Part shown: one piece after another, positions 55,185-55,500 of the stretch | How the letters are laid out: each line of letters opens with the position of its first letter | How positions within the stretch are numbered: position 1 is the stretch's first letter | Assembly: GCF_003018115.1 (NCBI RefSeq) | Contig: NZ_CP027457.1 | Length of the DNA stretch: 64,000 nt | Reading direction: 5' to 3' (one strand) | Source: Escherichia coli | Lineage (GTDB): Bacteria > Pseudomonadota > Gammaproteobacteria > Enterobacterales > Enterobacteriaceae | Made by a program: the position numbers and the translations under genes | The notes under the pieces: model-generated | The model's database searches: none | What the model was told of the DNA's origin: nothing | What the model saw: only the letters and a program-made list of their open reading frames with translations

Positions 55185-55500
55185 GGCAAGGCTGTTATTG
55201 CCGGATGCGGCGTGAACGCCTTATCCGACCTACACAGCACTGAACTCGTAGGCCTGATAAGACGCGCAAGCGTCGCATCAGGCAATGCTGTTATTGTCGG
55301 ATGCGGCATGAACGCCTTATCCGACCTACACAGCACCGAACTCGTAGGCCTGATAAGACGCGGCAGCGTCGCATCAGGCAATGCTGTTATTGTCGGATGC
55401 GGCGTGAGCGCCTTATCCGACCTACACACAGCACTGAACTCGTAGGCCTGATAAGACACAACAGCGTCGCATCAGGCGCTGCGGTGTATACCTGATGCGT
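55185..55500. repeat. BIME cluster: three tandem roughly 100-bp units of paired REP palindromes between pepA and holC
   Basis: Repeated tgccggatgcggcgtgaacgccttatccgacctacacagcactgaactcgtaggcctgataagacgcg...gcgtcgcatcaggc units; the short ORFs over it are artefacts. Confidence 0.85.

What the first reader, a model, noticed from the sequence alone, without database searches (positions are those of the whole stretch)
55185..55500. Three tandem BIME units between pepA and holC
A roughly 300-bp array of three nearly identical 100-bp units, each carrying paired REP palindromes, fills the pepA-holC intergenic space. It is likely a transcript-stabilising or terminating structure between convergent or tandem highly expressed genes. 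The small ORFs over it (55160-55495) are artefacts.
Basis: seen in the sequence. Interest (0 to 1): 0.2.

Follow-up and report, generated by a model that had tools for sequence, protein, structure and literature searches.

The report
Three-unit BIME-2 repeat between pepA and holC
The space between the E. coli genes pepA and holC holds three tandem copies of a well-known palindromic repeat (a BIME-2 made of six REP hairpins); it is an ordinary, already described kind of element whose copy number differs between strains.

Summary
Window 55182-55477 is a tandem array with period 96/96/98 nt, 3.1 copies and 91-94% unit identity. It fills 323 of the 353 bp between pepA (53665-55176, +) and holC (55530-55973, +).

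Each unit is one y REP plus one inverted z2 REP, separated by linkers of 14-16 nt and 12 nt. That is a textbook BIME-2 with six REPs. pepA, holC and valS are tandem, not convergent.

In about 118 sampled complete E. coli genomes the site carries:
- 3 units: about 47% (the window's allele is the commonest)
- 2 units: about 18%
- 1 unit (K-12): about 5%
- an unrelated 133-bp palindromic repeat: about 26-29%

The 1-, 2- and 3-unit alleles differ by whole in-register units. E. albertii has 3 units and a divergent Escherichia lineage has 4.

The likely action is inferred from the homologous REP325 array: hairpins in the pepA 3' region protect pepA mRNA and partly attenuate read-through into holC-valS. 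The y REPs are also candidate gyrase sites and the z2 REPs are exact IS621 targets.

The overlapping ORFs are repeat artefacts. Nothing here departs from known BIME biology, so interest is low.

The parts
53665..55176 (+). pepA (leucyl aminopeptidase) CDS, the upstream gene; stop codon TAA at 55174-55176
   Evidence: ORF list; RefSeq annotation of the 100%-identical record NZ_CP024269.1
55177..55187 (+). Left partial copy (TTGCGTCAGGC) of the 3' arm of an inverted z2 REP. It is the extra 0.1 copy of the array and is complementary to 55491-55499.
   Evidence: Sequence; part table. In the whole-spacer MFE it pairs with the distal half-palindrome and closes the array.
55188..55199 (+). 12-nt linker AAGGCTGTTATT. 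The equivalent linkers at 55284-55295 and 55380-55391 read AATGCTGTTATT.
55200..55233 (-). y REP no. 1 (GCCGGATGCGGCGTGAACGCCTTATCCGACCTAC). Its GTAG tetranucleotide lies on the minus strand (CTAC on +). RNA hairpin -15.3 kcal/mol, with a C.A mismatch at the stem foot.
   Evidence: published REP sequences
55234..55247 (+). 14-nt short linker ACAGCACTGAACTC between the CTAC and GTAG ends. The equivalents are 55330-55343 (14 nt) and 55426-55441 (16 nt, with an AC insertion).
55248..55283 (+). z2 REP no. 1 (GTAGGCCTGATAAGACGCGCAAGCGTCGCATCAGGC), GTAG on the + strand. Hairpin -20.5 kcal/mol. Contains the exact IS621 target ATCAGGCCTAC on the minus strand (55248-55258).
55296..55329 (-). y REP no. 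2 (GTCGGATG...CCGACCTAC). Hairpin -17.4 kcal/mol. The 5' T restores pairing with the A of CCGAC.
55344..55379 (+). z2 REP no. 2. Hairpin -20.5 kcal/mol. IS621 target at 55344-55354 (minus strand).
55392..55425 (-). y REP no. 3. Hairpin -19.2 kcal/mol.
55442..55477 (+). z2 REP no. 3, with a weakened inner stem (GACACAAC...). Hairpin -14.3 kcal/mol. IS621 target at 55442-55452 (minus strand). This REP is identical to the single z2 REP of K-12.
55491..55499 (+). Distal half-palindrome CCTGATGCG. It can pair with CGCATCAGG (55468-55476) of z2 no. 3 to form an alternative -17.1 kcal/mol hairpin, followed by TATTTAAAT. It is present in every BIME allele examined, and its two substitutions keep G.U pairs.
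55500..55529 (+). A/C-rich, G-poor holC leader (TATTTAAATCCACCACAAGAAGCCCCATTT) with the Shine-Dalgarno-like AAGAAG. It is conserved nearly unchanged across enterobacterial genera whatever repeat lies upstream.
55530..55973 (+). holC (DNA polymerase III chi) CDS, the downstream gene. It overlaps the valS start by one base.
55973..58828 (+). valS CDS, third gene of the tandem group
58850..58875 (+). The only canonical intrinsic terminator of the pepA-holC-valS group (11-bp stem followed by TTTTATCTCTT). It is bidirectional with yjgN.
   Evidence: The K-12 counterpart is listed as a bidirectional terminator with the gene string yjgN:pepA:holC:valS.

Best explanation
The array is a BIME-2: three head-to-tail units, each made of a y REP and an inverted z2 REP with short linkers. 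It sits in the 3' untranslated region of pepA, directly upstream of a conserved 30-nt holC leader. I put the identification itself at about 0.97.

Origin. The array grew and shrinks by in-register unequal recombination or replication slippage between units. The K-12 one-unit allele equals the window's first y REP plus its last z2 REP. A two-unit allele has a chimeric y1/y2 REP. The original seeding by the REP-associated transposase TnpA_REP is inferred only.

Action, inferred by homology and not shown at this locus. When pepA is transcribed, the six REPs fold into hairpins of -14 to -20 kcal/mol. These hairpins (a) stop 3'-to-5' exonucleases and so stabilise pepA mRNA ends, and (b) act as a partial, probably partly Rho-dependent, attenuator. 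Fewer polymerases then continue into holC-valS, and the group finally ends at the intrinsic terminator after valS. The number of units would set the strength of both effects.

At the DNA level the y REPs are likely gyrase cleavage sites, and the three z2 REPs are exact insertion targets for IS621.
For: Identity:
- Period-96 array.
- Six REPs within 3 substitutions or fewer of the y and z2 consensus. The published REP sequences are quoted.
- GTAG/CTAC is present in all six REPs, in alternating orientation, with linkers of 12 and 14-16 nt.
- There is no IHF consensus in the spacer.
- These features match the BIME-2 definition in Ton-Hoang 2012.
- The Rfam model built on REP325 units matches twice above its gathering score, at 82.2 and 77.9 bits against 59.5.

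Origin:
- Alleles of 1, 2 and 3 units differ by whole units with crossover points inside the repeats.
- The two surveys gave 56 three-unit, 21 two-unit and 6 one-unit rows.
- A divergent Escherichia has 4 units and E. albertii has 3.

Action:
- All three genes lie on one strand.
- There is no consensus sigma-70 promoter and no canonical terminator between pepA and holC. The only canonical terminator follows valS.
- A published bidirectional-terminator table links that terminator to 'pepA:holC:valS'.
- Fold z-score is -9.2.
- REP325, a six-unit array of the same repeat kind between tandem genes, attenuates the downstream gene 8-10-fold, stabilises the upstream mRNA and is partly bicyclomycin-sensitive. 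Genome-wide, REP-containing tandem pairs show a raised upstream/downstream expression ratio.
- REP hairpins define exonuclease-trimmed 3' ends.
- Gyrase cleavage sites are over-represented in BIME-2, mainly in y REPs.
- ATCAGGCCTAC occurs 3 times, only in this array, and a natural IS621 insertion sits at exactly that position of this locus in strain CUVET20-416.
Against: - No expression, 3'-end or gyrase data exist here for this locus or this strain. The function is carried over from another locus.
- Harris et al. stress that REP effects depend on context, and that 2-4-hairpin fragments showed no Rho dependence.
- The array is flipped relative to REP325. The sense RNA here reads GUAG-z2 ... 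y-CUAC, whereas naRNA4-like sequence is on the antisense strand.
- About 26% of E. coli genomes lack the BIME altogether.
- One viable strain has a 1.3-kb IS621 between pepA and holC. Read-through from pepA therefore cannot be the only source of the essential valS transcript. A promoter-like site lies inside holC at 55846-55875.
- The K-12 REP at this site was not found under the names pepA or holC in the held, truncated Rho-binding table.
Confidence: 0.62

Rival explanations
1. The array is a selfish or neutral repeat. It is only the residue of REP proliferation and slippage at a permissive site, with no selected effect on pepA, holC or valS.
For: Copy number ranges freely from 1 to 4, and 26% of genomes carry a different element instead. 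Most other genera have spacers of only about 80-160 bp. An IS621 insertion and a 122-bp duplication at this site are tolerated. Alleles differ by simple in-register unit gain or loss.
Against: In most of the closer enterobacterial genera examined, some GC-rich palindromic element lies immediately upstream of the conserved ATTTAAAT...holC leader. It may be a REP, a BIME or the CCCTCTCCC/GGGAGAGGG family. That pattern fits a need for a 3' hairpin as well as it fits an insertion hot spot. REPs in tandem gene pairs show measurable expression bias genome-wide. A hairpin array of this stability on an mRNA is unlikely to have no effect.
Confidence: 0.28
2. The element is mainly a DNA-level topological device. 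It is a transcription-independent strong gyrase site (BIME-2 y REPs) that manages supercoiling around the pepA-holC-valS group, and the RNA effects are secondary.
For: Gyrase cleavage sites are significantly over-represented in BIME-2, chiefly in y REPs, and persist or increase under rifampicin. This array has three y REPs.
Against: Only a subset of BIME-2 elements house cleavage sites, and this locus is not among those named. There are no gyrase data for the three-unit allele. This reading does not exclude the RNA-level role.
Confidence: 0.15
3. The array encodes naRNA4-like nucleoid-associated RNAs that act with HU to condense the chromosome (Rfam RF02564).
For: Two matches to RF02564 lie above the gathering score, at 55251-55326 and 55347-55422 on the minus strand.
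Against: The matching strand is antisense to pepA-holC-valS, whereas in REP325 the matches are on the transcribed strand. No promoter-like site for the minus strand was found in 54900-55700. The match reflects shared y/z2 REP sequence. Harris et al. 2026 found that REP325 and naRNA4 have no measurable effect on nucleoid compaction or REP-REP contacts.
Confidence: 0.03
4. The functional part is the distal alternative hairpin (55468-55476 pairing with 55491-55499) followed by UAUUUAAAU, acting as the intrinsic terminator of pepA. On this reading the REP units are passengers inserted into it.
For: The half-palindrome is retained in all BIME alleles, with wobble-preserving changes and variable loops. 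Removing the units leaves a simple hairpin next to the conserved ATTTAAAT. In several other genera a single REP hairpin directly precedes TT..ATTTAAA.
Against: The terminator scan does not call it, because the tail has too few U residues. It competes with the z2 no. 3 hairpin, which wins in the local MFE (-24.3 kcal/mol for the fold that contains z2 no. 3). The stem is simply the outer stem of a z2 REP.
Confidence: 0.1
5. One of the ORFs across the array (99 aa on the minus strand at 55160-55459, or 77 aa and 64 aa on the plus strand) encodes a real small protein.
For: The ORFs exist because 96 nt equals 32 codons, which keeps frames open across units.
Against: Two frames on each strand are open at the same time. 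ORF length scales with unit number. The frames break in alleles with 98-nt units. The ORFs are absent or much shorter in 1-unit alleles and absent from the non-BIME allele. No Pfam match reaches threshold. None is annotated in six RefSeq genomes.
Confidence: 0.01

Closest known systems
BIME-2 family of E. coli REP clusters (Gilson/Bachellier nomenclature; summarised in Ton-Hoang et al. 2012, PMC3333891)
   Same: It has y and z2 REPs in alternating orientation, short linkers, tandem multi-copy organisation and an extragenic location. Units within the locus are well conserved and the copy number differs between strains.
   Different: Nothing essential differs. All three y REPs carry CCGACCTAC instead of the consensus CCGGCCTAC, and the last z2 has a weakened inner stem.
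The single BIME unit at the same pepA-holC site of E. coli K-12 MG1655 (159-bp spacer)
   Same: Same site, same flanks, same y-linker-z2 unit and the same distal half-palindrome and holC leader.
   Different: K-12 has one unit, equal to the window's y no. 1 plus z2 no. 3. The window has three units, which is the most frequent state among complete E. coli genomes.
REP325 / naRNA4 array between yjdM and yjdN (Qian 2015, PMC4550694; Harris et al. 2026 preprint)
   Same: It is a tandem array of two-REP units with a period of about 100 nt (5.8 copies) between two tandem genes. It is recognised by the same Rfam model, and it is experimentally a dual mRNA stabiliser and partial Rho-dependent attenuator.
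   Different: The window has 3 units rather than 6 and different linkers (12 and 14 nt, against longer linkers in a 100-nt period). The array is in the opposite orientation relative to transcription. The function at pepA-holC is untested.
REP stabilisers of upstream cistrons in polycistronic mRNAs (Newbury et al. 1987, malE-malF; Espeli et al. 2001, BIME attenuation). I cite these from memory and from reference lists.
   Same: They are intercistronic REP hairpins between tandem genes that block 3' exonucleases and attenuate transcription (background).
   Different: Those loci were tested experimentally and this one was not.
IS621 (IS110 family, bridge-RNA recombinase) natural target sites in REPs
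   Same: Each z2 REP contains the exact natural target ATCAGGCCTAC. One E. coli genome has IS621 inserted at that position of this very locus.
   Different: The window itself carries no IS at this site.

Membership tests
REP (PU) elements, y and z2 types | Imperfect palindrome of 30-40 nt able to form a stable hairpin | tested here: met
   Six palindromes of 34 nt (y) and 36 nt (z2) fold at -14.3 to -20.5 kcal/mol as RNA.
REP (PU) elements, y and z2 types | Conserved GTAG tetranucleotide at the foot of the palindrome (CTAC on the other strand) | tested here: met
   All six REPs have it: CTAC on the + strand for y, GTAG on the + strand for z2.
REP (PU) elements, y and z2 types | Sequence match to the published y/z1 and z2 REP sequences | tested here: met
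   Each REP is within 3 substitutions of the consensus used. The z2 consensus is identical to the published query sequence quoted, and the y consensus differs from the published y/z1-type sequence at one loop base.
REP (PU) elements, y and z2 types | Extragenic location and high copy number in the genome | tested here: met
   The array lies between the pepA stop codon and the holC start codon. A query containing the array finds a median of 36 places per E. coli genome, capped at 40 pieces.
BIME-2 | Composed of y and z2 REPs in alternating (REP/iREP) orientation | tested here: met
   The order is y, z2, y, z2, y, z2 with alternating GTAG strand.
BIME-2 | Short variable linkers, not the long L linker with an IHF site that marks BIME-1 | tested here: met
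   Linkers are 14/14/16 nt and 12 nt. None of the 8 IHF-consensus matches in the window falls in 55177-55529.
BIME-2 | Occurs as multiple tandem copies, well conserved within a locus | tested here: met
   3.1 copies at 91-94% identity.
BIME-2 | [quoted passage not shown] | tested here: met
   Spacers of 159, 257 and 353 bp correspond to 1, 2 and 3 units. Two surveys of 60 evenly spaced genomes each gave 6, 21 and 56 respectively. A divergent Escherichia lineage has 4 units.
BIME-2 | Bound and cleaved by DNA gyrase in vivo | not testable with these tools
   This is known for a subset of BIME-2 elements. There are no data for this locus.
REPtron / TnpA_REP (RAYT) substrates | GTAG plus a stem mismatch as the binding determinant; cleavage at TGCC|TGAT-type iREP sites | tested here: inconclusive
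   GTAG and the internal stem mismatches are present. TGCC|TGAT-like sequences lie at the unit boundaries (sequence; the cleavage-site consensus is). No tnpA_REP gene is in the window, and no activity can be tested.
naRNA4 (Rfam RF02564) | Covariance-model score at or above the gathering threshold | tested here: met
   82.2 and 77.9 bits against a threshold of 59.5, on the minus strand only. The plus strand scores 55.7 and 51.9, below threshold.
naRNA4 (Rfam RF02564) | Lies on the strand transcribed with the flanking genes, as in REP325 | tested here: not met
   In REP325 the matches are on the yjdM-to-yjdN sense strand. Here they are antisense to pepA-holC-valS.
Intrinsic (Rho-independent) terminator | GC-rich hairpin immediately followed by a U tract | tested here: not met
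   No + strand terminator-like site lies in 54900-55700. The nearest one on the + strand follows valS at 58850-58875. The distal hairpin is followed only by UAUUUAAAU.
Translation-regulating REPs (Liang, Rudd and Deutscher 2015) | REP hairpin within 15 nt of the upstream stop codon | tested here: not met
   The first REP stem starts at 55202, leaving 25 nt after the TAA that ends at 55176. The original paper could not be opened.
IS621 natural target | Exact 11-nt target ATCAGGCCTAC with a CT core | tested here: met
   There are three exact matches, all in the z2 REPs of this array, against 0.01 expected. The target is defined. A natural insertion at this position is seen in L130.

The most novel reading that the evidence does not exclude
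The stretch between the pepA stop codon and the conserved 30-nt holC leader may be a functional slot that must hold some hairpin-forming repeat. Different families fill it in different lineages: y/z2 BIME in Escherichia, single REPs in Salmonella, Citrobacter and Enterobacter, and the CCCTCTCCC/GGGAGAGGG family in Pseudocitrobacter and in 26% of E. coli. On this reading the number of units (0-4) acts as a heritable, strain-specific dial on the ratio of pepA to holC-valS expression. That would link a polymorphic repeat to the dosage of a replisome subunit and an essential tRNA synthetase.
Probability: 0.15. Interest if true: 0.35.

Novelty: already known. Interest (0 to 1): 0.12.

Why it matters
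It matters little on its own. This is a textbook BIME-2, at a site where K-12 already has one unit, and variable BIME copy number between strains is documented. It is useful for annotation: the ORFs across the array should not be called, and the Rfam naRNA4 hits should not be read as an sRNA gene. It also offers a natural allelic series (0, 1, 2, 3 and 4 units, plus an alternative repeat and an IS621 insertion) on which the recently proposed 'REPs as tunable 3'UTR dials' idea could be tested next to an essential gene.

Tried and rejected
- Protein-coding reading of the ORFs: rejected.
- naRNA4 sRNA gene: the Rfam hits are real but lie on the antisense strand and only reflect shared REP sequence.
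- Canonical terminator or sigma-70 promoter in the spacer: none found.
- REP annotation in the RefSeq copies: no repeat_region features are shown even at REP325, so their absence at pepA-holC says nothing.
- Naming the alternative 133-bp allele. I recall it as BoxC-like, but one literature search was useless. The other confirms only that BoxC is a 56-bp, roughly 32-copy E. coli family and gives no sequence. Rfam returned only sub-threshold 'whalefall-1' noise. The name remains unverified.
- Papers not held: Liang 2015 and Thomason 2015 TSS data. The Dar and Sorek supplement is also not held. I therefore found no direct 3'-end or TSS data for pepA/holC.
- A search for papers on pepA-holC-valS operon structure gave nothing useful.
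- A complete census of unit number across all 5,425 genomes could not be obtained, because the tool lists at most 60 rows. I used two evenly spaced samples instead.

Full report
OBSERVATION. Tandem Repeats Finder reports a single array at 55182-55477 with period 96, 3.1 copies, 93% matches and score 504. The repeat finder shows three in-register 96-nt copies. My own dissection gives units of 96, 96 and 98 nt that are 91-94% identical. The spacer between the pepA stop codon (55174-55176) and the holC ATG (55530) is 353 bp. The array and its flanking half-palindromes take up 55177-55499. The remaining 30 nt are a separate, conserved holC leader. The structure is far beyond chance. The 366-nt region folds at -165.5 kcal/mol with a z-score of -9.2, and the minus strand gives -9.1, with no shuffle folding as well. 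The only corrections are that the unit is 96-98 nt rather than 100 and that the edges sit at 55177 and about 55499.

CONTEXT. The window is E. coli chromosome. A 1,301-bp stretch across this locus is 100% identical to strain F8111-1SC3, and that record's annotation matches the window's ORFs. The gene order is lptG-lptF (minus strand), then pepA, holC and valS, all on the plus strand, then yjgN convergent with valS. holC and valS overlap by one base. The pair flanking the array is therefore tandem, not convergent.

ANATOMY. Each unit runs as follows: a 12-nt linker, a 34-nt y REP, a 14-16-nt linker, and a 36-nt z2 REP in the opposite orientation.
- The y REPs lie at 55200-55233, 55296-55329 and 55392-55425.
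- The z2 REPs lie at 55248-55283, 55344-55379 and 55442-55477.
- All six carry the GTAG/CTAC foot.
- As RNA they fold at -14.3 to -20.5 kcal/mol.
- They lie within 3 substitutions of the y and z2 consensus. The published REP query sequences quoted by Durrant et al. confirm that consensus.

The array begins with an 11-nt partial z2 arm directly after the stop codon (55177-55187). It ends with a 9-nt half-palindrome (55491-55499) that can pair either with that left arm, closing the whole array as in the MFE, or with the 3' arm of the last z2. The second pairing gives a -17.1 kcal/mol hairpin followed by UAUUUAAAU.

FAMILY. These features are the definition of a BIME-2 given by Ton-Hoang et al. 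2012: y plus z2, short linkers, tandem multi-copy, units well conserved within a locus, and copy number variable among strains. None of the window's eight IHF-consensus matches falls in the spacer, which argues against BIME-1. Rfam's naRNA4 model (RF02564) was built on units of the REP325 array. It matches twice above its gathering score (82.2 and 77.9 bits against 59.5), but only on the minus strand. At REP325 itself the matches are on the strand transcribed from yjdM to yjdN. The pepA-holC array is therefore the same kind of repeat but flipped relative to transcription. The hits should not be read as an sRNA gene.

VARIATION AMONG STRAINS. A query made only of the pepA 3' end joined to the holC 5' end finds the locus once in 5,425 of 5,426 complete E. 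coli genomes. The distance between the two pieces gives the spacer length. Two surveys of 60 evenly spaced rows each gave the counts below.

| Spacer | State | Rows |
|---|---|---|
| 351-356 bp | 3 units | 56 |
| 255-260 bp | 2 units | 21 |
| 159-161 bp | 1 unit, as in K-12 | 6 |
| 121-133 bp | no BIME | 35 |
| split by an insertion | one genome, seen twice | 2 |

No E. coli row had more than 3 units. Independently, 4,008 genomes cover at least 80% of a BIME-containing query, and 1,401 genomes carry the alternative 133-bp element at full length. The window's three-unit state is thus the commonest allele.

The alleles are related by whole units. K-12's single unit equals the window's y no. 1 and first linker joined to z2 no. 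3. A two-unit allele has a y REP that is chimeric between y no. 1 and y no. 2. That is the signature of in-register unequal recombination or replication slippage.

OUTSIDE E. COLI. I scanned one genome per species with a degenerate holC-start pattern, which returned 120 loci. pepA-holC adjacency is conserved across Enterobacterales, with a typical spacer of 80-160 bp.
- E. albertii has three y/z2 units (348 bp).
- A divergent lineage labelled E. coli SCPM-O-B-8794 has four units (455 bp).
- Escherichia sp. MOD1-EC7003 has one unit (161 bp).
- Salmonella, Citrobacter, Kluyvera, Enterobacter and others have a single REP-like hairpin.
- Pseudocitrobacter faecalis has a three-copy tandem array of the CCCTCTCCC...GGGAGAGGG family. 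This is the family to which the alternative E. coli allele appears to belong, judged by eye from shared motifs.

In most of the closer genera, the palindromic element, whatever it is, abuts the same conserved A/C-rich leader, (C/T)ATTTAAATCCACCACAAGAAGCCCCATAT-ATG.

HOW IT MOST LIKELY WORKS. The sequence shows directly that:
- six stable hairpins lie on the pepA sense transcript;
- the spacer has no consensus promoter and no canonical terminator;
- the only canonical terminator follows valS.

A published bidirectional-terminator table reproduced in a 2026 preprint links the valS terminator to the gene string yjgN:pepA:holC:valS. This suggests co-transcription in K-12.

The following steps are inferred from homologous systems. 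REP325, a six-unit array between tandem genes, lowers expression of the downstream gene 8-10-fold. It stabilises the upstream mRNA, yields a ladder of hairpin-terminated RNAs, and is partly bicyclomycin-sensitive only as a long array. Genome-wide, REP-containing tandem pairs have a raised upstream/downstream expression ratio. REP hairpins also mark exonuclease-trimmed 3' ends of Rho-terminated transcripts.

I therefore commit to the following reading. The array protects pepA mRNA 3' ends and partially attenuates read-through into holC-valS, with strength depending on unit number. The unstructured A/C-rich leader keeps the holC ribosome-binding site accessible after the structured block.

At the DNA level, BIME-2 y REPs are preferred gyrase cleavage sites that do not depend on transcription. 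The three z2 REPs contain the only three exact copies in the window of ATCAGGCCTAC, the natural IS621 bridge-RNA target. In strain CUVET20-416 an IS621 sits exactly there, in the second z2 of a two-unit allele.

CAVEATS AND RIVALS.
- Neutral or selfish repeat. This reading (about 0.28) is not excluded. A quarter of strains lack the BIME, unit number varies freely, and an IS insertion is tolerated. The IS insertion also shows that read-through from pepA cannot be the sole source of the essential valS transcript. A promoter-like site lies inside holC at 55846-55875.
- Translation control. The REP-near-stop-codon mechanism of Liang 2015 needs a REP within 15 nt of the stop codon. Here the first stem starts 25 nt after it, so that criterion is not met.
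- naRNA4/HU chromosome condensation. The matches are on the wrong strand, and the mechanism is contradicted by recent work.
- Distal hairpin as a true intrinsic terminator. It lacks a U tract.

THE ORFs. The ORFs at 55160-55459 (minus strand, 99 aa), 55212-55445 (plus, 77 aa) and 55301-55495 (plus, 64 aa) exist because 96 nt equals 32 codons. Two frames on each strand are open at once. ORF length scales with unit number. The frames shift in the 98-nt-unit allele. Nothing reaches a Pfam threshold. PGAP annotates none of them in six genomes.

VERDICT. The element is a BIME-2 of a long-known kind, at a locus where K-12 already has one unit, and strain-to-strain variation in BIME copy number is documented in the literature. 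Novelty: already known. Interest is low (0.12). The only mildly interesting extension is that this intergenic slot is filled by different palindromic repeat families in different lineages. It offers a natural 0-4-unit allelic series next to holC and valS on which the 'REP as expression dial' idea could be tested.

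Noticed in passing
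L003:678-810 (E. coli JCH767), replacing window 55177-55499: About 26% of complete E. coli genomes (1,401 at full length) carry an unrelated 133-bp palindromic element (…CCCTCACCCTAACCCTCTCCCTAAGGGAGAGGG…CAGGGTGAGG…) between the pepA stop codon and the conserved holC leader, in place of the BIME. It belongs to a dispersed family with a median of 6 places per genome. I recall it as BoxC-like but could not verify the name.
   Followed up: partly
L130:3663-5199 (E. coli CUVET20-416, NZ_CP098870.1): An IS621 (IS110 family, bridge-RNA recombinase) is inserted in the second z2 REP of a two-unit BIME at this locus, at GTAG|GGCC. This is the CT core of the natural target ATCAGGCCTAC. The strain is viable although 1.3 kb lies between pepA and holC-valS.
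   Followed up: yes
window 55500-55529; last 30 nt of the spacers in L008-L127: The 30 nt upstream of the holC ATG (ATTTAAATCCACCACAAGAAGCCCCATAT) are almost invariant across Escherichia, Salmonella, Citrobacter, Kluyvera, Pseudocitrobacter and others, while everything upstream of them is replaced by different repeats. This may be an unstructured CA-rich translation leader. A promoter -10 role was not supported by the scan.
   Followed up: partly
L021 (Pseudocitrobacter faecalis), 286-bp pepA-holC spacer: Three tandem copies of a roughly 62-nt unit of the CCCTCTCCC/GGGAGAGGG repeat family occupy the same slot. A second repeat family therefore also amplifies in tandem at this site.
   Followed up: no
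L131:401-655 (E. coli WB61): A strain-specific 122-bp tandem duplication covers part of the alternative repeat, the holC leader and the first 42 nt of holC. It creates a second holC start region.
   Followed up: no
window 54223-54417 (minus strand): A full-length Rfam match to Ysr276 (Yersinia antisense sRNA, 180 bits against a threshold of 100) lies inside and antisense to the pepA coding sequence. It most likely reflects conservation of pepA rather than evidence for an antisense RNA in E. coli.
   Followed up: no
window 55846-55875 (+): A sigma-70 promoter-like site (TTGCCA, 18-nt spacer, TAGACT, with an upstream TG) lies inside holC. It is a candidate internal promoter for valS. The number of such sites in the region equals the chance expectation.
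   Followed up: no
window 58850-58875: A perfect 11-bp GC-rich hairpin with T or A runs on both sides lies between valS and the convergent yjgN. Its K-12 counterpart is listed as a bidirectional terminator and labelled REP341 in the preprint's Table 16.
   Followed up: partly
window 2107-2140, 25834-25867, 30483-30518, 51076-51111: Four solitary REPs lie elsewhere in the window (two y-type, two z2-type). The one at 25834 directly abuts an IHF-consensus match (25822-25834), so it may be part of a BIME-1/RIP-type element.
   Followed up: no
window about 32570-35207 (fimD) and about 43400-48208 (region next to tRNA-Leu): In the matching RefSeq record fimD is annotated as frameshifted. The stretch next to the tRNA-Leu gene (48127-48208, minus strand) holds degraded island genes: a frameshifted phosphorothioated-DNA restriction endonuclease, an HNH fragment and a truncated sialate O-acetylesterase.
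   Followed up: no
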